DNA from: Desulfosarcina sp. | GTDB lineage: Bacteria > Desulfobacterota > Desulfobacteria > Desulfobacterales > Desulfosarcinaceae | Assembly (NCBI GenBank): GCA_050124445.1 | Contig: JASFFF010000001.1 | Coordinates: 1-63,572 of the forward strand | Direction of reading: 5' to 3' | Length of the DNA stretch: 63,572 bases | In this document: positions 37,478 through 47,773 of the stretch, piece by piece | Layout: every line of letters begins with the position of its first letter | How positions within the stretch are numbered: position 1 is the first letter of the stretch | Notes under the pieces: generated by a model | Seen by the model: the letters and a program-made list of their open reading frames with translations, nothing else | Told to the model about the DNA's origin: nothing | The model's database searches: none | Program-made: the position numbers and the translations under genes

Positions 37478-37799
37478 GATTCGGTACTCCTTTGGTGCGC
37501 TATCGTTAGTATGGAGGCGGACGCTTGCCGCCGAATATTCCTCAAATCATTAAGCCTTTTGGCAAAAACAGTCAAGCAGATTGTCCTTTAAGGACCGTCC
37601 GATACCAATGGCCCGGCAGATGCTGGGTCGGGCATGCCGTCTGATGCCGGTGGCTGCTTTCGCTTTGAGGGGGTGATGGCCTGGATTTGGTGTAAAGCAA
37701 ACACCTTGCTAAGCCAAAGGCCTTATGGTAAATTACCGGCGTAACGATCCCCGACACGCAATTTGATCCCATTGCCATCATTTGATTAAGGAGATACCG

Positions 37800-38117
37800 A
37801 TGTTTGATCTGGTCAGAAAGAGTATGCTTGCCGGCGTGGGCCTGGCACTCAAAGCCTGGGATGAGGTGGAAGAGCTGGCCAAGGAGGTGGCCGAGCAGAG
37901 CAAGATGACGGAGAAAGAGGGCCGCAAGTTTATCGACGAGATTCAGATCCGCTATGAAGACGCCCAGAAAAAGCTGGAAGAGCGTGTTGAAAAAAGTGTC
38001 AAGGAACTGCTCAAAAAAGCCGACGTGGTAACCCAGGACGAACTCAAGGGCCTCAAAAAAGAGATCCGAGACCTGAAGCGGCTGATCAGTTCCCAGGGCG
38101 GCGAGGGATCCGAATGA
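37800..38117 (+). CDS. Phasin-like (PhaF/PhaI family) coiled-coil protein
   Basis: K..LAG.GLA....E...L........M.E.EG..F pattern, C-terminal T..EL..L...I..L; AAGGAG RBS. Confidence 0.75.
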   Translation: MFDLVRKSMLAGVGLALKAWDEVEELAKEVAEQSKMTEKEGRKFIDEIQIRYEDAQKKLEERVEKSVKELLKKADVVTQDELKGLKKEIRDLKRLISSQGGEGSE

Positions 38118-38127
38118 CGCGGCAGGC

Positions 38128-39825
38128 ATGATTAGCATTCGCAAAATCGGTGTGGTCGGCCGCACCTATCGCCATCTGAACCGATATCGACAGATCCTTG
38201 CGGTGCTGTTTAAATATGGTTTCGATGATATTGTCGAACTGTTAAAAATCGATCAATATATCGAGATCGGTCTGCAGGTAATCTCACGCAAGCGCGGCGA
38301 CCGGGTGGAACGGCTTTCCAGGGCGAGGCGGGTGCGTCTGGCCATTGAAGAGTTGGGCCCCACCTACATCAAGATGGGTCAGATCTTATCTACCCGACCC
38401 GACCTTGTGCCCGTGGATTTCATCCGCGAATTGGCGCGGCTACAGGATAAGGTCCCCGCCTTTCCCTTTTCCGAGGTCACCCGCATCATCCGCGAAGAAA
38501 CCGGCCGGCCGGCCGATGCCCGCTTCGAGCACCTGGATCCCGAGCCGTTGGCCTCGGCTTCCATCGGCCAGGTTCACCGGGCCCGGCTCAAGGACGGGGA
38601 GGCGGTGGCCGTAAAAGTCCAGCGGCCCGGAATCCGCAAAGTCGTTGAGGTGGACCTGGAAATTATGCTCCACCTGGCTACCCTGGCTGAACGGCACATC
38701 GAAGAGCTGGCCCATCACCGGCCGGTGAAGATCGTGGAGGAATTTGCTCGCTCCATCGAAAAGGAGATGGACTATACCTTGGAAGCCACCAGCATGGAAC
38801 GCGTGGCCCGGTCTTTTCTGCTGGACGAGACGGTTTATATCCCCAAGGTTTACCGAGAGGCCACGACCGAACGTGTGCTGACCACCGAATTCGTGGACGG
38901 CATCAAGGTCTCCCTGCTGGATCGATTGGACGAAAACGGTTACGACCGCCAACTGATCACCCGACGCGGCGCCGATATACTGCTGACCCAAATTTTCGAA
39001 CACGGCTTCTTCCATGCCGATCCCCATCCCGGCAATCTTTTCGTCCTGCCCAACAACATGATCTGCCTGCTGGATTTCGGTATGATGGGCACCGTAGACC
39101 GCAATACCCGCGAGGCATTTGTGGAACTGGTGGATGCCGTGGTGCGCCGTGATGAACCGCGCACCACCCAGGTGATGCTCAAGCTGACCCTCTGGGAAGA
39201 AGAGCCCGACCTGCGCCGACTGGGTAAAGATGTTGCCGATTTTATGGGTGAACATCTCTATAAGCCGCTCAGAGATATTCAGATCGGCAAACTGCTGCAT
39301 CACCTGCTGGAACTGGCCTCTCTACACGGGCTGCGCATCCCGCCCGAGCTTTTTTTAATGATGAAGTCGCTCAGCGCCGTCGAAGGGGTCGGTCTGATGC
39401 TGGATCCCGATTTTGACATGATCGCCCACGCCGAGCCCTTTATCCGCCAGGTCAAGCTCTCGCGGTTCTCCCCCGAACGCCTGGGGAGCGACGCGGTTAG
39501 TATTTTCGCCCAGTACATGGACTTCGTTCAGGAGTTTCCCAAGGACCTGCTGGAGATCACCCGTACCATCCGCCAAAAGAAGTTCACCTTCATGCTGGAT
39601 CTGAAAAACATGGAGAGCATGCTCGCCACCCACGATCAGATCAGCAACCGCATCTCTTTTTCGATCATCATCGCCGCCCTGATCATCGGCTCGGCCCTGA
39701 TCGTCATTTCCAAAACCCCGCCGCTATTCTATGGCATCTCTCTGATCGGCATCATCGGTTTCCTGGCCGCCGCCCTCATGGGGGTCTGGCTACTGGTGGC
39801 GATTATCAAGAAAGGCCGGCTGTAA
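38128..39825 (+). CDS. ABC1/AarF/UbiB family atypical kinase
   Basis: LGPTYIKMGQ, ASASIGQVH, VAVKVQRP, HADPHPGN, LDFG; two C-terminal TMs. Confidence 0.92.
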   Translation: MISIRKIGVVGRTYRHLNRYRQILAVLFKYGFDDIVELLKIDQYIEIGLQVISRKRGDRVERLSRARRVRLAIEELGPTYIKMGQILSTRPDLVPVDFIRELARLQDKVPAFPFSEVTRIIREETGRPADARFEHLDPEPLASASIGQVHRARLKDGEAVAVKVQRPGIRKVVEVDLEIMLHLATLAERHIEELAHHRPVKIVEEFARSIEKEMDYTLEATSMERVARSFLLDETVYIPKVYREATTERVLTTEFVDGIKVSLLDRLDENGYDRQLITRRGADILLTQIFEHGFFHADPHPGNLFVLPNNMICLLDFGMMGTVDRNTREAFVELVDAVVRRDEPRTTQVMLKLTLWEEEPDLRRLGKDVADFMGEHLYKPLRDIQIGKLLHHLLELASLHGLRIPPELFLMMKSLSAVEGVGLMLDPDFDMIAHAEPFIRQVKLSRFSPERLGSDAVSIFAQYMDFVQEFPKDLLEITRTIRQKKFTFMLDLKNMESMLATHDQISNRISFSIIIAALIIGSALIVISKTPPLFYGISLIGIIGFLAAALMGVWLLVAIIKKGRL

Positions 39826-39930
39826 CCCACGGCAAACGGTTGGATCATCGACCACTTTGTTTTGTGCTTCTCATGGTTGCGGCTATGGTCGATTCTGCGA
39901 TCGGAGGGGGTTTGATAAAAAAAATTCCGC

Positions 39931-39985
39931 TTGACAACCATAACGCACTGCATCATATTGTCGTTTATAACGCACTGCGTTATAA
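39931..39985 (+). promoter_or_regulatory. Sigma70 promoter overlapped by two candidate PhaR-type operators
   Basis: TTGACA-17nt-CATATT; ATAACGCACTGC occurs twice; second copy lies in the perfect palindrome TTATAACGCA-C-TGCGTTATAA (39965-39985). Confidence 0.65.
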
Positions 39986-40058
39986 CGGGCAGGGGCCCGA
40001 CAGGCTGATAAAAAAAACAGCCCACCATCTAACGGACAGAAAAACAAGGAGATTGATC

Positions 40059-40724
40059 ATGGCACAGGCAAAGACCCGAAAAGGCAGCCAGAAAAAAAGA
40101 ACGGCCAAGAACCGCTTTTATGTGGTCAACACCGTCCAGCGCACCGGCCGCCGGCTGAGCGACAAACTGGAAGATGTCAGCGACACCTATATTTCCGGAC
40201 CGATCAGAAACGGCAGGGCGAGGGTAACCGATTTGAGACAGGCGCCGCGCAAAACACTGTTTGGGTGGTTGGATGAGGGCAAGGAGATGATCACGGATCT
40301 GAACCAGGAGACCCGGTCGACGATGGACAAGATGGTCAAAGACGGCAAGGCGTTTTTGACCAACGTCGGCAAATCCCCGCGCAAGACCCTCGATGGCGTG
40401 CTGGATGACGGCAGGGCTTGGGTCGACGATCTGCGGGAAGACGCCTGCAGCCGCATGGCGGAATTAAAGACGGACACGCGTTCCATGCTTGCAGGAATCG
40501 GCAAGGATGCTCAGCTGGTGGTGGATGAGGTCGTTAGCGGTGGCCGGAAGGCGTTGGACAAGGTCCCCGGCAAGCGGACAGTCGAAAAGGCGGTACGCAT
40601 TCGGATCCGTAAGCTTCCTGCCCAGTTGAACATGCCCAGCAAGAAAGATATCGATGGTCTGTCGCGTCGGGTCAGCGCACTCAACAAAAAGGTCGATGCG
40701 CTCCATCGGACCGTGGCTGCCTGA
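40059..40724 (+). CDS. Amphipathic-helix granule-associated (phasin/apolipoprotein-like) protein
   Basis: AGGAG RBS and ATG 40059; repeated PRKTL.G.LD.G units; C-terminal LNMPSKKDIDGLSRRVSALNKKV phasin-type tail. Confidence 0.65.
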   Translation: MAQAKTRKGSQKKRTAKNRFYVVNTVQRTGRRLSDKLEDVSDTYISGPIRNGRARVTDLRQAPRKTLFGWLDEGKEMITDLNQETRSTMDKMVKDGKAFLTNVGKSPRKTLDGVLDDGRAWVDDLREDACSRMAELKTDTRSMLAGIGKDAQLVVDEVVSGGRKALDKVPGKRTVEKAVRIRIRKLPAQLNMPSKKDIDGLSRRVSALNKKVDALHRTVAA

Positions 40725-40776
40725 AACGGGTCTTGAATGAAATTCGAATCTTTGCAAACACAATGAGGAGCAGATT

Positions 40777-41205
40777 ATGCGCATAATCAAAACCTACGCC
40801 AACGGCCGATTCTACGACACCCTCAACAAAAGGTACATGGGCAAGGAGCAACTGGCGTCCTTGCTTGAGAAAAAAGAAGCCATTAAAATCATCATGCACA
40901 AAACCGACAGCGATGTGACCCAATCGGTGGCCAAGCAGCTGGCCCCGTTGATGCGCACCGAATCCGGGGCGCGGTTCAACATCGACAACCTGAGGCAATG
41001 GGTGTCTGATCAGGTCGATCGGCGAATTGAAAAGGCCGTCGCATTGGTTAATCTTCCTACGCGAGACCAGATACGCCGTCTGACCATTGATATCGAAACA
41101 CTCACCAAGCAGGTGGATGGACTGCAAGATCGCCTGGTTAAAGTGAAAACGCCTGTGGAAACACCCCCGGCCGATGCGGCAATGGCAGTCGGCCCACAGA
41201 CCTAA
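40777..41205 (+). CDS. PhaR-like regulator (PHB-accumulation N-terminal DNA-binding domain plus phasin-type tail)
   Basis: MRIIKTYANGRFYDT..K.Y matches the PhaR IKKY.NRRLYDT motif; DVT; LPTRDQI..L...I..L tail. Confidence 0.75.
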   Translation: MRIIKTYANGRFYDTLNKRYMGKEQLASLLEKKEAIKIIMHKTDSDVTQSVAKQLAPLMRTESGARFNIDNLRQWVSDQVDRRIEKAVALVNLPTRDQIRRLTIDIETLTKQVDGLQDRLVKVKTPVETPPADAAMAVGPQT

Positions 41206-41514: not shown

Positions 41515-41739
41515 GTGCATATGGATGTTTTGACAGACAACCGTCCAGCCAGGTATCATGTCAACCAGCAATGTATCGGTTGCTGCATCTGTTCCGCGAT
41601 AGCTCCCCGAAATTTTCGGACCGACCATGAGCGCGGGTTGGATTATGTTTGCAAGCAGCCGGACAGTCCGGAAGAGGAACAATTGTGTGCCGAGGCCATG
41701 GATATCTGTCCGGTCAACGCCATCGACCGGCATGCGTAA
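41515..41739 (+). CDS. Single-cluster ferredoxin
   Basis: CIGCCIC...AP.NF......V.KQP...EE...C..A...CPVNAI. Confidence 0.8.
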   Translation: MHMDVLTDNRPARYHVNQQCIGCCICSAIAPRNFRTDHERGLDYVCKQPDSPEEEQLCAEAMDICPVNAIDRHA

Positions 41740-41776: not shown

Positions 41777-43864
41777 ATGGCACGTCAGGAGGAAACTGTG
41801 AAACAGGTGGTCAGCATCAGTTTGGGATCAAGCCAAAAGGACTATTCGTTCAACACCGAATTTCTGGGGCAGGAATTTACCATCAACCGCTTGGGCACCG
41901 ATGGCGATCTGGAAAAGGCCGCCGAACTGCTGCTGCGCATGGATAAAGAGGCGGATGCCATCGGGCTTGGTCAGATCAAGTATCCTTATGGGATCGGCCC
42001 ACGCTACCTGAACAAATACAAACATCATAAAATTAAAGATCTGGGCGGTCAGCTGCAAACACCGGTCACCATCGGCAGTGCGCTGCGGGATGTCTCCTTC
42101 GAGTGGGCCCTGCGCTATATCGAATACAAATTCGGCAACTACTTCAGCAATGTCCGGGTGTTGTTTTTTTCAGGCATGTACAATTACCGGATTGCCAAGG
42201 TGATGTCCGAGTTTACGGATAACTTGACCTTTGCCGACCCGATCCTGGAAAATGGCATCCCCAAGTTTATCAATTCCCTGGACGACCTAACGGCCTATGC
42301 CCATTCGGCCCATGAGGTCTTGCAATGGGTTCCCAGCCAGCGGTTGACCGACTCGGTCATGCCGATCAAGGCGTGGAACGACTATATTCTTCGCAAAGCC
42401 ATGCAAAAAGCCTCGATCATCGTCGTTCCCAATTACGGATTCGACGGATATCTGGAAAACGCCACCCTCGAGGAATTGGGCGGCAAGACCATTATTTCCT
42501 CCACTGTGGACGATGATCGGGTAGCCTTTTTGAAAGAACGCGGGGTGGATGTCATCATCGACACGACCCCCAAAATCCTCCAGCGTGTGGTGGCACCCAA
42601 TGCGTTGGAGGCCCTGATCCTTGCCGCGCTGGAACGCAAAAGCGATCAGGTCGATGCGGATGATCTGCTGGAACTGATCAGTGCCCAGAAAATGGATCCA
42701 CGGGTGGTCTATCCGTCGGGCAGCGCCAAACGTGTCAACCGGTTTGCCTTTGTGATCCATCCGCTCTCCAAAGAGTTTCTCAAGAAGGACAAGGCCGTAA
42801 AAATGCTGGCCGACTTCACGCCACCCGCATTTCTGGATGCGGTCGAAAAGGTGATTGCCTACGCGCCCCCATGGGTCTATTCCCGCGTCACCGGCATCAA
42901 GTCGCCGACAGGCGTGGAAGCCGAGGGATGGCTGCTGACGGTTGGCGGCACGCCCAAGCAGATGCTGGCCCATGACCCGGAATTCACCTACTCGCGGTTG
43001 CTCCAGGCCGCGCGCATGGCCAAGCGCATGGGTGCACAGATCATGGGGCTGGGCGCATTCACCAAGGTGGTTGGCGATGCAGGGGTTACCGTAGCCAAGA
43101 AAGCCAATATCCCCATTACCACCGGCAACAGCTACAGTGCCTCCGGCGCGCTCTGGGCCGCCGCCGATGCGGTTCGCCGCATGGGGCTGATCAAAATTGA
43201 AAAAGGCCGGCGTATCCAGGCCAAAACCATGGTCTTGGGGGCGACCGGGGCGATTGGATCGGTGTGCTGCCGGTTGTTGGCCAAGGCCTTTGGCGAAGTC
43301 TATCTGGTTGGCCGCAACACCGCCAAACTGCTGGCGATGAAAGAATCGATCCACAAGGAGGACCCGGATGTCAAGCTGACCGTGACCACCCGCCCTAACA
43401 AATATCTGGCCGATATGGATGTGATCGTCACGGCCACCTCGGGTGCGGGCAAGAAGATTCTGGATATCACCAAGGTCAAGCCGGGCTGCGTGATCACGGA
43501 TGTGGCCCGTCCCTTGGACCTCTCCCCGGAGGATGTGGCCAAGCGGCCGGACGTGTTGGTGATCGAATCGGGGGAAATTGAACTGCCCGGCAACCCGGAG
43601 ATGGGAAATATCGGCCTGCCCGACAAAGTGGCCTATGCTTGCCTGGCCGAAACCATCGTTTTGGCATTAGAGGGGCGCTTTGAGATCTTTACCATCGGCC
43701 GGGACATCGAATGGGAAAAGGTGAAAGAGATCTATAAACTCGGCCTCAGGCACGGCATGAAACTGGCCGCGATTTCCGGCGTCAACGGTGTGTTTTCGGA
43801 TGATGATATCGCACGGGTCACAAAACTTGCCCTGGAAGCCAAAAGTCAACGACCACCCGTTTAG
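41777..43864 (+). CDS. Two-domain acyl-ACP/CoA reductase-like protein (C-terminal AAR/COG5322 domain), catalytic Cys present
   Basis: FAFVIHP, GIKSPTG.EAEGW, GLGAFT, TTGNS, GATGAIG, DVARP.D, YACLAE (Cys622). Confidence 0.75.
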   Translation: MARQEETVKQVVSISLGSSQKDYSFNTEFLGQEFTINRLGTDGDLEKAAELLLRMDKEADAIGLGQIKYPYGIGPRYLNKYKHHKIKDLGGQLQTPVTIGSALRDVSFEWALRYIEYKFGNYFSNVRVLFFSGMYNYRIAKVMSEFTDNLTFADPILENGIPKFINSLDDLTAYAHSAHEVLQWVPSQRLTDSVMPIKAWNDYILRKAMQKASIIVVPNYGFDGYLENATLEELGGKTIISSTVDDDRVAFLKERGVDVIIDTTPKILQRVVAPNALEALILAALERKSDQVDADDLLELISAQKMDPRVVYPSGSAKRVNRFAFVIHPLSKEFLKKDKAVKMLADFTPPAFLDAVEKVIAYAPPWVYSRVTGIKSPTGVEAEGWLLTVGGTPKQMLAHDPEFTYSRLLQAARMAKRMGAQIMGLGAFTKVVGDAGVTVAKKANIPITTGNSYSASGALWAAADAVRRMGLIKIEKGRRIQAKTMVLGATGAIGSVCCRLLAKAFGEVYLVGRNTAKLLAMKESIHKEDPDVKLTVTTRPNKYLADMDVIVTATSGAGKKILDITKVKPGCVITDVARPLDLSPEDVAKRPDVLVIESGEIELPGNPEMGNIGLPDKVAYACLAETIVLALEGRFEIFTIGRDIEWEKVKEIYKLGLRHGMKLAAISGVNGVFSDDDIARVTKLALEAKSQRPPV

Positions 43865-43870
43865 CGGATG

Positions 43871-43907
43871 GCTTGTCATTCCGGCCAACGGCCGGAATGG
43901 CCCAAGC
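43871..43907. repeat. Intergenic stem-loop between the two reductase paralogs
   Basis: CATTCCGGCC-AAC-GGCCGGAATG stem extended by GCTTG / CAAGC. Confidence 0.55.
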
Positions 43908-43994
43908 ATGTCAGTGCCTAAATGGTTGCGGTTGTGACCGTGTGCAACGCACCCGGTTTGAAGACAACAATCAACAAATGGTTAGTTAGCGGAG

Positions 43995-46058
43995 GTGCTT
44001 GTGAAACAGATCATCCAAATCAGTTTGGGTCCCAGCTTGGACGACATCGAATTCGAAACGGAATTTTTAAAACAACCGTTTCACATCCGGCGTCTGGGAA
44101 CCGATGGGGATGTGGAGCAAGCCTCCGACTTGCTGCTTAAGTGGAACAAGCGGGCTGATGCCATCGCCTTGGGCGGTATTCGTTCAGCCCAAACCATGCA
44201 CCCAAAGCATGCTTCGAAAAAGGATCTGGTCCGGCTGTTGGAACTTGGATCCAAACTGGAGACCCCCGTGACATCCGGCAACATGCTTCGCCTGGTGGGC
44301 CACGAATGGTCACTGCGTCATATCCAATTCAAGCTGGGCAACAACTATTTCAACAATGCCCGGGTATTTTTTTTCTCAGGGCGATCGAGTCGCACCATCG
44401 CCAAGGTCATGGCGGAGTACAGCCAAAACCTGATATTTGCCGATGCCCTGCTGGAAAATGGGGTTCCCAAGTTGGTCGACGGGCTGAAGGATTTCAAGCT
44501 TTACAACGGCCGTCTGCGGGACGTGTTGGCATGGGTTCCCGGGAAAAGCATGTTCACGGACAGCGAACCGGTGCGCAGGATGATCAACCATCTACTGCGA
44601 CAGGCGGTGCATGATGCGCATATCCTGGTGGTTCCCCACCACCAATTTTTTAAATTTCTGGACCCTTTTAGCATCGACGATCTCAAATCCAAAACAGTGA
44701 TCACTTCTACGGTGTATGACGACCGGATCGATTACCTGAAAGACAAGGGGGTCGACGTGATCATCGACACGACGCCCAAGCTGTTGGACAGTGTTGCCGG
44801 CGTGAGCGTGTTGGAAGCGATGCTGCGGGTTGCCTTCGATATCCCCAAGGGCGAAGCAAGCGACGACGAATTGCTCGAGATCATTAGCAATATGCAAATG
44901 GAGCCCCGCATCATTTATCCTGCTGGAAAACCCAAACGGGTCAACCGCTTCGCCTATGTGATCCATCCGCCGAGCCAGGACTATCTGAAAAAGCTCAAGC
45001 CCGTCGAGGTGTTGTCGGACCTTGCACCGGGCATGATGAATACGGTCGAAAAGGTCATGGCCTACGCCCCGCCCTTCGTCTACTCCACGGTTCGGGGAAT
45101 CCGTTCGAAAACCGGTGTGGAGGCCGAAGGATGGCTGATCGCCCTCGGGGTCACGCCGGAGCAGATGCAGGCCCACGGACCCGAATTCACCACCAAACGA
45201 ATCCTGGAAGCTGCCGAGATTGCCAAAAAGAAGGGTGCCCAGATAATGGGCATCGGCCTGCTGCCCAAAGCGATGAAGGACACCAGCCTGGACGTAGCCA
45301 AGCACGCCGTGCTCCCCATCACCACGGGTAATAGTTATTTTGCTTCCTCAGCCTTGTGGGCCGGTGCCGAGGCCGTTCGCAAGATGGGCATGACCCGGCT
45401 CAAACACGGGAAGGTGCTGCGGGCCAAAGCCATGGTTGTCGGTGCCACCGGGGCGGTGGGGGTGATTTGTTCGCACCTATTGGCCAGGGCCTTCGAAGAA
45501 ATCTACTTGGTCGGCCGAAATATCGCCAAGCTGCTGGCCCTGCAGGAGTCCGTTCAAAAAGAAGTTCCCTCGGTCAAGCTGCGCGTCTCCACGCGGGCAG
45601 ACAAGAATCTAAGCCAGATGGATATGATCGTGGCCACCAGTTCCGGTGCCCGTGCTGTCCTGGATATTATGCAGATCAAACCCGGCGGTGTGATTGTCGA
45701 TATCAATCTGCCGAGTATTTTTACCAAGGAGACGGTTGCCAAACGCCCCGATGTGATGATCATTCGTGGCGGAGAGATTCGTTTGCCCGGCGATCATGTG
45801 GAGATGAAAGATATCGGCCTTCCACCCGGCGTCGTCTATGCCGGACTCGCCGAAACGATCACCCTGGCCCTGGAGGGTCGTTTCGAGGTGTTCACCGTCG
45901 GCGCTGCACCCCAATGGGACAAGGTCCGGGAAATTTATCGTTTGGGCTTAAAGCATGGCATGCAGTTGGCAGCCATCTCCGGTGTTGATGGGATCTATTC
46001 CGACGAAGAGATTACCAGAGCCAAGGCATTGGCAATCAAGGAACGCAATCGAGCATGA
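43995..46058 (+). CDS. Paralogous two-domain AAR-like protein, catalytic Cys replaced by Gly
   Basis: Colinear with 41777-43864 (ISLG.S, DVIIDTTPK, KRVNRFA, TTGNS, GATGAVG) but YAGLAE (Gly617); GTG start after GGAGG. Confidence 0.75.
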   Translation: MLVKQIIQISLGPSLDDIEFETEFLKQPFHIRRLGTDGDVEQASDLLLKWNKRADAIALGGIRSAQTMHPKHASKKDLVRLLELGSKLETPVTSGNMLRLVGHEWSLRHIQFKLGNNYFNNARVFFFSGRSSRTIAKVMAEYSQNLIFADALLENGVPKLVDGLKDFKLYNGRLRDVLAWVPGKSMFTDSEPVRRMINHLLRQAVHDAHILVVPHHQFFKFLDPFSIDDLKSKTVITSTVYDDRIDYLKDKGVDVIIDTTPKLLDSVAGVSVLEAMLRVAFDIPKGEASDDELLEIISNMQMEPRIIYPAGKPKRVNRFAYVIHPPSQDYLKKLKPVEVLSDLAPGMMNTVEKVMAYAPPFVYSTVRGIRSKTGVEAEGWLIALGVTPEQMQAHGPEFTTKRILEAAEIAKKKGAQIMGIGLLPKAMKDTSLDVAKHAVLPITTGNSYFASSALWAGAEAVRKMGMTRLKHGKVLRAKAMVVGATGAVGVICSHLLARAFEEIYLVGRNIAKLLALQESVQKEVPSVKLRVSTRADKNLSQMDMIVATSSGARAVLDIMQIKPGGVIVDINLPSIFTKETVAKRPDVMIIRGGEIRLPGDHVEMKDIGLPPGVVYAGLAETITLALEGRFEVFTVGAAPQWDKVREIYRLGLKHGMQLAAISGVDGIYSDEEITRAKALAIKERNRA

Positions 46059-47773
46059 TCTTCAGGCAGTGGCGGAAACTGAGCAATCACATGGCGCGTT
46101 TTTTTGTCAATGACGGCCCGGCCCGGTTGATAAACGGCTGTTACAACGCTTACAGCATGTTATATCGCGGTCAGCTCAGCTTGGGGCTGCCCGTTTCAAA
46201 GACGCTGATCGTCAGCCAGGCGGAAATCAAAGACAGGGCGATTCGCAAGCTCGCCTTGGCCCTTTACCATATTATTCTCAATGCAACCCGCCGTCAGATG
46301 GTAAGGGCGGACATTCAGCGGGTCATCTCCGAAGAACTCTCCAGCGGGCGACTTCGATTGACAGAAAGTGCCATTTTTCTGACCGAAGCGCAATTGACCG
46401 GCCTGATGCTCGAGCAATTAAAGATCCCTGAAAAGCATATGCCTCAGATTCTGGATATTGCTCGTCGGCGCCGTATCCTAAGCGAGTGGTTGCGTACCGA
46501 TCCGGGGCCGATCTATTTTGAAAGCGAGATCGAAGAAAAAGAACAAAACGGGCGCGGCGATTACGAAACGGTTTACTACCGCAATTACACGGACGAGGGC
46601 AAAGAGATCGGATTTCGCCGCATGGTTAGCATGGAAGGGGTCACCGCGGGCGACAACCGTGCGGCGGTAATATTGATTCCCGGTTTCGCCAACAACAGCA
46701 ACTGTTTCAACATCAGCAACCGCTACTCACTGGCCAAAGACATAGCCGATAAGAATCAATGGGTTTACCTGTTTGATCCCCGGGGGGTGGGGGTTAATCA
46801 GGGACGCTTCGATCCGCTGTACACCGTGGACACCATGATCGATTACGACCTTGCCACCTTGGTGCGCTTCATCCATAAACGCAGCTGCGGCAAGCCATCC
46901 ATTCTGATCGGGCACAGCATGGGCGGACTGGTCGCTGAAAACATGGTGCTCAACTGGGCGCTTGCCCGCCGGATGCCCGAGATCGACGAACTCGATCCGC
47001 AGCAGAAAGAACTGCTGGGCCAGGTGCTGCCGTCGGCCCATACGGCGGGCGAATACCTAAAGATGGTGCGCGGGATTGTCTCATTGGGTGCGCCTAAGGT
47101 TTTTCGTAAACAATCCCACGTTTTTTTTCCGACGTCGCTATGGTTGAATCACCTCTCGAGAACCTTTCGCTTTCGGCAGGTTCCGGTTAAAGAAATTTCC
47201 AAGGTTCTCACCGAGCTTCCTGTGCTCAAACAGGTCACGCGTTTGATTGTCAATCACAATGTGGGGGACTTAAACTTTCTGGTCTCACCGGAAAATCACA
47301 AGGATGATAAGTATTTCGTAGAGCGCTACTTGAAAACCGCCACCGAATCGATACCGTTGGGCCTCGGTTTTCAGTGTCTGAAAGCCATCTACAATGGCCA
47401 GGGCTTCAAGCGCATGGACGGCAGCCGACTGAACTATTCAGACTGCTTGCCCTGGTTCCCGGAGACCATCCCCGTTTTTCATTTCTGGGGCACGCGTGAC
47501 AGACTGGTGCCTTTAGAGAATTTGCGTTACCGCAAGCATTATCCTCACAAGAACAAAAAGATCTACCACCTCGAATCGCCCGATGATCTACGAAAAATTA
47601 ACCTAACCGCAGAGCGCAGCCAGCTCATCGATTTTGTGATAGAGGGAGCCAATCATCTTGACCTGCTTTACGGCAAACTTGCCGATCAATTGGTCAGGCC
47701 TTTAATCGTGCAGATTATTGAGAAGGTATGGGGTGATTGGGCTTACGATACCCTCCCCGATGGGTCGGAATAG
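46055..47773 (+). CDS. Alpha/beta hydrolase (Ser nucleophile) with N-terminal extension
   Basis: LIPGFA, FDPRG.G, GHSMGG (Ser288), WG..D.LV, NHLDLL; ATGA overlap with the upstream gene. Confidence 0.75.
   Translation: MIFRQWRKLSNHMARFFVNDGPARLINGCYNAYSMLYRGQLSLGLPVSKTLIVSQAEIKDRAIRKLALALYHIILNATRRQMVRADIQRVISEELSSGRLRLTESAIFLTEAQLTGLMLEQLKIPEKHMPQILDIARRRRILSEWLRTDPGPIYFESEIEEKEQNGRGDYETVYYRNYTDEGKEIGFRRMVSMEGVTAGDNRAAVILIPGFANNSNCFNISNRYSLAKDIADKNQWVYLFDPRGVGVNQGRFDPLYTVDTMIDYDLATLVRFIHKRSCGKPSILIGHSMGGLVAENMVLNWALARRMPEIDELDPQQKELLGQVLPSAHTAGEYLKMVRGIVSLGAPKVFRKQSHVFFPTSLWLNHLSRTFRFRQVPVKEISKVLTELPVLKQVTRLIVNHNVGDLNFLVSPENHKDDKYFVERYLKTATESIPLGLGFQCLKAIYNGQGFKRMDGSRLNYSDCLPWFPETIPVFHFWGTRDRLVPLENLRYRKHYPHKNKKIYHLESPDDLRKINLTAERSQLIDFVIEGANHLDLLYGKLADQLVRPLIVQIIEKVWGDWAYDTLPDGSE

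What the first reader, a model, noticed from the sequence alone, without database searches (positions are those of the whole stretch)
41777..46058. Tandem acyl-ACP-reductase-like paralogs: one active, one pseudo-enzyme
Seen: copy 1 has VAYACLAE (TGC at 43640, Cys622), matching the ACFAE motif that carries the catalytic Cys of cyanobacterial AAR. Copy 2 has VVYAGLAE (GGA at 45843, Gly617) and changes GLGAFTKVVGD to GIGLLPKAMKD, yet keeps TTGNS, the GATGAVG dinucleotide loop and an intact full-length frame. Inference: a retained non-catalytic partner acting as heterodimer subunit, NAD(P)H sensor or scaffold on the granule.
Basis: partly seen in the sequence, partly recalled or inferred. Interest (0 to 1): 0.75.

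Follow-up and report, generated by a model that had tools for sequence, protein, structure and literature searches.

The report
Conserved catalytically dead fatty-acyl reductase twin
A sulfate-reducer-type bacterium carries two neighbouring genes for relatives of the cyanobacterial fatty acyl-ACP reductase; only the first keeps the catalytic cysteine, yet the second is kept intact and under selection across many genomes that also encode wax-ester synthase, so it is likely a non-catalytic, ligand-binding regulator of an undescribed route to storage waxes.

Summary
Observation confirmed: TGC (Cys) at 43640 and GGA (Gly) at 45843 align to AAR Cys294; the proteins are 53% identical. It is no error: RNA contigs carry the Gly codon, and the Cys-then-Gly pair recurs in 16 of 201 genomes of the order and 9 of 65 of the family. 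Gly copies form one clade that mirrors the Cys-copy tree (r 0.93), with dN/dS 0.08-0.15. They lose the catalytic-cleft motifs but keep the nucleotide-binding ones. Each protein is two AAR-fold modules, so the pair has four modules and one catalytic Cys. The family tracks wax-ester synthase (31 genomes both, 163 neither, of 201), so the 'granule' is more likely a wax-ester body than PHA. Best reading: copy 1 reduces acyl-CoA to aldehyde; copy 2 binds acyl-CoA or NADPH without thioester chemistry and regulates. No activity or binding was shown. An unlinked Ser-type Cys-less clade also exists. I found no paper on the family. This scan noted the same pair before on another genome (e1-5014513).

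The parts
41777..43864 (+). Copy 1: two-module AAR-fold protein with catalytic Cys (ATG 41777, 695 aa; alternative start GTG 41798, 688 aa)
   Evidence: aligned start codon in 27 pairs
41798..42721 (+). Copy 1 N-module: degenerate AAR-fold module, no Cys at the equivalent place
   Evidence: model pLDDT 91; best of 48,161 chains is AAR 6jzq, Z 13.8, rmsd 4.6, 249 aligned; N- vs C-half profile match probability 63%, E 7e-5
42722..43864 (+). Copy 1 C-module: AAR/PigE/TAD-like reductase module (TTGNS, GATGAIG, GRN, DVARP, YACLAE)
43640..43642 (+). TGC, Cys622, equivalent of AAR Cys294
   Evidence: Cys in 27 of 27 tandem first copies
43995..46058 (+). Copy 2: two-module AAR-fold protein without the catalytic Cys (likely start GTG 44001, 685 aa)
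45843..45845 (+). GGA, Gly617, in place of the catalytic Cys
   Evidence: Gly in 27 of 27 second copies, all four Gly codons used; RNA contigs
41515..41739 (+). Small single-cluster ferredoxin directly upstream of copy 1
   Evidence: Fer4_13 E 1.6e-15; cluster found in loci of 30 genomes
46055..47773 (+). Alpha/beta hydrolase overlapping the stop of copy 2 by 4 bases; Ser288, Asp482, His534 conserved (Ser nucleophile, not PhaC-type Cys)
   Evidence: (25 homologs)
40777..41205 (+). PhaR-N plus phasin-like protein
   Evidence: PF07879 E 1.3e-11; below the TIGR01848 cut-off
39840..40724 (+). Phasin-domain protein (true start probably later than 39840)
   Evidence: PF05597 E 6.7e-7; homology begins near 40116
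38128..39825 (+). ABC1/UbiB atypical kinase
   Evidence: PF03109 E 7.9e-85
37782..38117 (+). Small phasin-like protein
   Evidence: PF05597 E 1.6e-5, under the cut-off

Best explanation
Two adjacent genes encode double AAR-fold proteins of which only the first keeps the catalytic cysteine; copy 1 likely reduces fatty acyl-CoA to aldehyde for wax-ester storage, and copy 2 likely acts as a non-catalytic protein that binds intact acyl-CoA or NADPH and tunes that pathway. Shown: anatomy, fold, residue loss, conservation, co-inheritance, co-occurrence with wax-ester synthase. Inferred steps: (1) copy 1 takes the acyl chain on Cys622 and NADPH releases the aldehyde, as in AAR; (2) the iron alcohol dehydrogenase-SCP2 fusion makes the alcohol and WS/DGAT the ester; (3) copy 2 keeps the shared ADP/phosphate cleft but cannot cleave the thioester, so it would hold acyl-CoA or NADPH in competition, as the engineered AAR C294S does, and report the acyl-CoA/NADPH balance to copy 1 or to the hydrolase encoded right behind it.
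For: Cys-then-Gly pair in 16 of 201 order genomes (15 adjacent on one contig, 1 split at contig ends) and 9 of 65 family genomes, none of which has only one two-module copy. Gly clade of 31 rows, support 1.0, with motif columns removed; 100/99 in IQ-TREE. Trees of 27 pairs agree: patristic r 0.93, 18 of 24 splits shared, Gly copy 2.1 times faster. dN/dS 0.077-0.151 for Gly and 0.040-0.116 for Cys copies in 9 disjoint pairs. Of positions invariant in 123 Cys proteins, those lost in 107 Gly/Ala proteins include the cleft motifs (425-438, 552-554, 576-582, 597-598, 622), while T448-T449-G450-N451, G488/G491/G494, R513-N514, D575 and P579 stay invariant in both. AAR C294S holds whole stearoyl-CoA in the site that NADPH uses (PMC7089970, passages). 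Family vs WS/DGAT in 201 genomes: 31 both, 5 family only, 2 WS only, 163 neither. Relatives' loci hold WS/DGAT, Fe-ADH-SCP2, patatin and phasins; the own genome has these on C469/C549. Both genes are covered by contigs of 4 RNA runs.
Against: No activity or ligand binding was measured for either protein. Substrate and product rest on context. Many genomes have Cys copies and WS/DGAT with no Gly or Ser copy found (for example G009, G024, G032, G036, G042, G043, G048, G076), so copy 2 is not required. One genome (G202, draft) gave only a Gly copy. AAR Tyr247, needed for stearoyl-CoA binding there, is Arg578 in copy 1 and variable (Leu/Arg/Met) in Gly copies, so acyl-chain binding by copy 2 may be lost. 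The genome also has a class III PHA synthase. Genomes are related, so the co-occurrence counts overstate independence.
Confidence: 0.5

Rival explanations
1. Copy 2 is a structural or activating subunit: it replaces one protomer of an ancestral homo-oligomer and forms a fixed heteromer with copy 1.
For: Fixed order Cys then Gly, spacer -4 to 233 bases in 26 same-contig pairs, with 4-base overlaps in 3; mirrored trees; gained or lost as a unit in the family; the related TAD is a dimer through its N-terminal subdomain (bioRxiv 10.1101/2024.10.28.620694, passages).
Against: Cys copies occur without a Cys-less paralog in many WS/DGAT genomes; in G201 the Gly copy is on another contig than its Cys copy and keeps the hydrolase behind it; cyanobacterial AAR does not dimerise through that subdomain.
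Confidence: 0.17
2. Copy 2 is an active NAD(P)H oxidoreductase that needs no Cys, for example the aldehyde-to-alcohol step fed by copy 1.
For: Dinucleotide loop, TTGN, RN, D575 and P579 are invariant; the C-module is under stronger selection than the N-module (dN/dS about 0.04-0.15 against 0.04-0.26); the fold's further neighbours are amino-acid and shikimate dehydrogenases.
Against: The cleft motifs become variable rather than fixed to new residues; apart from Gly617 almost no position is both fixed in Gly copies and absent from Cys copies; an Fe-ADH-SCP2 is already in the cluster.
Confidence: 0.15
3. Copy 2 belongs to the mobilisation arm: it partners the lipid hydrolase behind it and gates wax-ester breakdown.
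For: Of 16 order genomes with a Gly copy, the next gene is the alpha/beta hydrolase in 12 and a patatin in 3; both unpaired Gly copies are followed by the hydrolase (L100) or an acyltransferase-family gene with a 4-base overlap (L101); the hydrolase is found in 14 of 18 genomes with a Gly or Ser-clade copy and 2 of the other 18 family-positive genomes.
Against: The downstream gene comes from three unrelated families, which fits operon context better than one interface; G080 has none; the hydrolase occurs in 5 genomes without the family; shared descent explains much of the pattern.
Confidence: 0.12
4. The locus serves PHA granules rather than wax-ester bodies.
For: Phasin- and PhaR-like neighbours; a class III PhaC over its cut-off on contig C400.
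Against: No PhaC among the 8 locus proteins scanned; the hydrolase has a Ser nucleophile; tight co-occurrence and linkage with WS/DGAT and Fe-ADH-SCP2.
Confidence: 0.05
5. Copy 2 is a decaying duplicate or a sequencing error.
For: dN/dS is higher than for copy 1 in 9 of 9 pairs.
Against: All upper bounds are at most 0.20; 27 of 27 frames are whole, 678-695 aa, and use all four Gly codons; RNA contigs carry the codon.
Confidence: 0.01

Closest known systems
Cyanobacterial acyl-ACP reductase AAR (TIGR04058; PDB 6jzq, 6jzu, 6jzy, 6jzz)
   Same: Fold of the C-module (Z 32.0) and, more weakly, of the N-module (Z 13.8); dinucleotide loop; Cys294 equivalent in copy 1. Copy 2 resembles a natural version of the engineered C294S trap.
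   Different: Two modules per chain (about 690 against 341 aa); scores 68.8 and 54.5 against a cut-off of 449.7; Tyr247 not kept; neighbours are ferredoxin, Fe-ADH and WS/DGAT; a conserved Cys-less paralog.
PigE / TamH thioester-reductase domains (NF053554; PDB 4ppm sequence)
   Same: Best sequence match of the C-module (E 1.6e-53 and 1.7e-39); conserved Cys (PigE Cys296, TamH Cys887; PMC8341465 and PMC9594044, passages).
   Different: No aminotransferase domain; scores 182 and 136 against a cut-off of 850; storage-lipid, not pigment, context.
Terminal amidation domain TAD of NRPS CarI (PDB 9e4s, 9e4x)
   Same: Fold (Z 30.8); Thr-Thr-Gly motif beside the Cys.
   Different: Free-standing genes; GRN in place of the NAD-selective Asp (inferred NADP(H) preference); copy 2 lacks the invariant Cys.
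Bacterial fatty acyl-CoA reductases of wax-ester synthesis: FarA, AcrB, Acr1, FcrA (PMC11948995, passages)
   Same: Predicted place in the pathway: supply of fatty alcohol to WS/DGAT.
   Different: Different family: neither copy matched NAD_binding_4, Sterile or HMG-CoA reductase models. The passages read do not list an AAR-fold family.

Membership tests
AAR (TIGR04058) | Score above the curated cut-off 449.7 | tested here: not met
   68.8 and 54.5 bits
AAR (TIGR04058) | AAR three-subdomain fold | tested here: met
   Copy 2 model 318-675 on 6jzq: Z 32.0, rmsd 3.2, 325 aligned; copy 1 C-module by sequence only
AAR (TIGR04058) | Catalytic Cys294, copy 1 | tested here: met
   Cys622
AAR (TIGR04058) | Catalytic Cys294, copy 2 | tested here: not met
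   Gly617
AAR (TIGR04058) | GATGxxG dinucleotide loop | tested here: met
   GATGAIG and GATGAVG; glycines invariant in both clades
AAR (TIGR04058) | Tyr247 in the acyl tunnel | tested here: not met
   Arg578 in copy 1; Leu/Arg/Met in Gly copies
AAR (TIGR04058) | Partner aldehyde-deformylating oxygenase | tested here: inconclusive
   None among the locus proteins scanned; the genome was not searched for it
AAR (TIGR04058) | NADPH-dependent reduction of acyl-ACP/CoA to aldehyde | not testable with these tools
   Needs an assay
PigE (NF053554) | Reductase fused to a PLP aminotransferase, score above 850 | tested here: not met
   Match covers profile 1-358 of 837; 182 and 136 bits
TAD | At the end of an NRPS module, invariant Cys, NAD-selective Asp | tested here: not met
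   Free-standing; GRN at that loop; Cys only in copy 1
Wax-ester synthesis cluster | WS/DGAT with HHxxxDG in the genome or locus | tested here: met
   TIGR02946 over cut-off on C469, HHxxxDG motif; adjacent in relatives; not in this window's locus
Wax-ester synthesis cluster | Wax esters are made | not testable with these tools
   Needs lipid analysis
PHA synthesis locus | PhaC in the locus | tested here: not met
   No PhaC match among locus proteins; a class III PhaC lies on C400
Pseudo-enzyme | Catalytic residue lost, frame and fold kept under purifying selection | tested here: met
Pseudo-enzyme | No catalytic activity in vitro | not testable with these tools
   Needs an assay

The most novel reading that the evidence does not exclude
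An undescribed anaerobic route to wax esters runs through a double-AAR-fold acyl-CoA reductase that has more than once spawned a dedicated Cys-less twin (a linked Gly clade, an unlinked Ser clade, further Glu/Thr/Ala lineages); the twin is a natural acyl-CoA/NADPH trap that sits on the reductase or the lipase and switches the lipid body between filling and emptying.
Probability: 0.25. Interest if true: 0.8.

Novelty: new variant of a known kind. Interest (0 to 1): 0.6.

Why it matters
The family would add an AAR-fold route to the known fatty acyl-CoA reductases of bacterial wax-ester synthesis, in sediment sulfate reducers where it accompanies nearly every wax-ester synthase found (31 of 33 genomes). 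The Cys-less twin is a well-conserved candidate pseudo-enzyme of storage-lipid metabolism; my paper searches found none described for this fold. Both claims can be tested with two purified proteins. A new aldehyde-forming reductase would also interest oleochemical engineering.

Tried and rejected
Complex prediction of copy 1 (residues 90-688) with the C-module of copy 2 (312-686) gave 'no answer', score 0.00 in both runs. It is evidence neither way, and the two full chains did not fit the size limit. Origin of the Gly clade is unresolved: it joins the Ser clade in whole-protein and C-module trees (99/96, SH-aLRT 95, 99/90), but the Ser clade joins same-genome Cys copies in the N-module tree (98/96). 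AU tests reject neither Gly+tandem-Cys (p 0.256, 0.15, 0.116), Gly+Ser in the N-module (0.404) nor Ser+Cys in the C-module (0.188). Searches of the own genome (86% complete) for other fatty acyl reductases: HMG-CoA reductase family none; Sterile none, but the control rang nowhere; NAD_binding_4 three partial matches in 318-352 aa frames. This does not show absence. A sigma-70-like site at 41530-41559 overlaps the ferredoxin frame and was not used. RNA contig depth cannot rank genes or show one transcript, and DNA in RNA libraries is not excluded. The Atlas named the N-module only 'putative quinate 5-dehydrogenase' without Pfam. Nine paper searches gave no paper on this two-module family or a Cys-less paralog; most subscription journals are outside that library.
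Full report
Observation. The window has two long frames on the + strand, 41777-43864 (695 aa) and 43995-46058 (687 aa), 53% identical over their whole length. TGC at 43640 gives Cys622 in VAYACLAE and GGA at 45843 gives Gly617 in VVYAGLAE. Cys622 aligns to Cys294 of Synechococcus AAR, and Gly617 to Ser294 of the C294S chain 6jzz. In AAR this Cys carries the acyl thioester (PMC7089970, passages). Copy 2 most likely starts at GTG 44001 (685 aa in the database). Contigs of 4 of 4 RNA runs laid (3 samples) cover the Gly codon without a coding change, and contigs of 4 runs cover parts of both genes; these are wetland metatranscriptomes, in which DNA is not excluded.

Anatomy. Residues ~318-675 match AAR, PigE and TAD by sequence, far below the family cut-offs. 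The model of copy 2 (pLDDT 84.5) superposes on AAR 6jzq with Z 32.0, rmsd 3.2 over 325 residues (Foldseek agrees). The first ~310 residues had no Pfam match. Folded alone (copy 1, pLDDT 91), their best match among 48,161 chains is again AAR (Z 13.8, rmsd 4.6, 249 aligned), then TAD (12.6), then unrelated folds at 9.4 or less. A profile comparison of the two halves gives probability 63%, E 7e-5. Each protein is therefore most likely a degenerate AAR-fold module fused to a recognisable one, and the pair has four modules and one catalytic Cys. I had noted the internal duplication as an idea before seeing earlier scan notes that say the same.

Recurrence. Of 119 database hits to copy 2, 110 have Gly, 2 Ala and 7 Cys, the last all with copy-1 motifs. 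In 201 genomes of the order, 36 match the family. I read loci of 34 of the 35 others plus the window: 16 genomes have a Gly copy, 15 directly behind a Cys copy and 1 split across contig ends. In the window's own family, 9 of 65 genomes have the Cys-then-Gly pair, 2 have only a remote single-module protein and 54 have no match. Among the best 80 of 573 loci from a scan of all species genomes, 19 have a Gly copy, 17 in tandem (several are the same genomes as above). Of the 2 exceptions, G201 has a Cys copy on another contig and G202 gave none. Source labels of the close relatives are Desulfobacterales, Desulfobacteraceae, Desulfosarcina and Desulfamplus.

Evolution. With the motif columns removed, 31 Gly rows form one clade (FastTree 1.0, 219 rows; IQ-TREE 100/99 on 55 chosen rows). 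For 27 pairs the Gly and Cys trees agree (r 0.93, 18 of 24 splits, 15 of 16 and 16 of 18 well-supported splits), the Gly copy changing 2.1 times faster. dN/dS (Nei-Gojobori) in 9 disjoint pairs is 0.077-0.151 for Gly and 0.040-0.116 for Cys copies, higher for Gly in 9 of 9, with upper bounds at most 0.20 (18 pairs). All 27 Gly frames are whole and all four Gly codons occur. So selection is relaxed but strong. Whether the Gly gene arose by duplication of its neighbour, and whether it shares an origin with the Ser clade, is unresolved.

What was lost and kept. Comparing 123 Cys and 107 Gly/Ala proteins, 64 positions invariant in the former vary in the latter. They include the AFTxVVG stretch (427-433), T552/T554, 576-582, E597/S598, C622 and 642-645. 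123 positions stay invariant in both, among them TTGN, the loop glycines, R513-N514, D575 and P579. By the AAR alignment the lost motifs include the Tyr247 stretch, the NADPH-binding region Fr-III and the Cys itself. Almost no new residue is fixed in their place, which fits loss of chemistry better than new chemistry. In AAR, CoA and NADPH share one cleft and the C294S mutant holds whole stearoyl-CoA there; this is the model for copy 2. That the GRN loop prefers 2'/3'-phosphorylated nucleotides is an inference from Rossmann-fold knowledge and from the TAD paper's account of the opposite, Asp-bearing case.

Context. In the window the pair lies behind phasin-like, ABC1-kinase, PhaR-like and ferredoxin genes and before an alpha/beta hydrolase with a conserved Ser-Asp-His set. 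In relatives the same locus holds WS/DGAT, Fe-ADH-SCP2 and patatin. The own genome has these on two overlapping contigs. In the 201 genomes, 31 have both the family and WS/DGAT, 5 the family only, 2 WS/DGAT only and 163 neither; kin are not independent. Of 16 Gly genomes 15 have WS/DGAT. No classical fatty acyl reductase was found in the 86% complete genome (weak negatives). A class III PHA synthase exists on another contig, so PHA is possible in this organism, but the locus follows wax-ester genes.

Mechanism. Most likely copy 1 makes fatty aldehyde through a Cys thioester, Fe-ADH-SCP2 the alcohol and WS/DGAT the wax ester. Copy 2 cannot form that thioester and most likely binds acyl-CoA or NADPH as a regulator of copy 1 or of the hydrolase (0.5 in all). 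Rivals: fixed subunit (0.17), Cys-free dehydrogenase (0.15), dedicated lipase partner (0.12), PHA role (0.05), decay (0.01). Copy 2 is an accessory, since many genomes have Cys copies and WS/DGAT without it. None of these steps was measured.

Comparison and novelty. The proteins work like AAR but are not members of TIGR04058, PigE or TAD by the tests listed. The wax-ester reductases named in PMC11948995 (passages) are FarA, AcrB, Acr1 and FcrA, none of this family. Nine searches found no paper on it; the library lacks most subscription journals. I saw passages only of PMC7089970, PMC8341465, PMC9594044, PMC11948995 and bioRxiv 10.1101/2024.10.28.620694, and no supplements; the tunnel-residue lists in the AAR paper's figures and supplements could sharpen the mapping. 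Earlier notes of this scan describe the same pair on another genome and the same family elsewhere; they are not independent support. Verdict: a real, conserved pseudo-enzyme candidate within an uncharacterised reductase family; new variant of a known kind; interest 0.6.

Noticed in passing
L064, L065, L103, L104, L106, L114, L123, L137, L144: A second Cys-less clade with Ser (YASLAE type) and an acidic cofactor loop. It is unlinked, and 9 of 9 such genomes carry one or more Cys copies elsewhere.
   Followed up: partly
L048, L050: Cys/Cys tandems in which one copy has GRN and the other DVR/DIR after the second Rossmann strand, possibly NADPH- and NADH-specific twins.
   Followed up: no
P0239, P0241, P0245, P0256, P0270, P0328, P0335, P0367: Among 67 long representatives at 50% identity, 55 have the Cys, 10 have Gly, Glu, Thr, Ala or Ser, and 2 do not align there; Cys loss recurs in the wider family.
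   Followed up: partly
L071 (G146): A one-contig genome whose only copy has Ser and several broken motifs, and in which no WS/DGAT was found; perhaps decay or change of role after loss of the pathway.
   Followed up: no
window 41798 and 44001: At the aligned start, both copies have GTG or TTG in 27 of 27 pairs, never ATG; some Cys copies may start further upstream.
   Followed up: partly
window 41515-41739: A ferredoxin precedes the Cys copy in loci of 30 genomes, although AAR chemistry needs no ferredoxin; role unexplained.
   Followed up: no
own genome C469 and C549: The two contigs overlap by 127 bases and together hold phasin, WS/DGAT, Fe-ADH-SCP2, patatin, a ~210 aa protein without Pfam match and a PhaR-like gene.
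   Followed up: partly
window 46055-46650: The hydrolase has a conserved N-terminal region of about 190 aa with no Pfam match.
   Followed up: no
window 39840-41205: RNA contigs over the phasin genes have far greater depth than those over neighbours in 4 of 4 runs; contigs cannot rank expression.
   Followed up: no
L108-L162: Single Cys copies in records labelled Beta- and Gammaproteobacteria, often divergent from an Fe-ADH, three beside WS/DGAT.
   Followed up: partly
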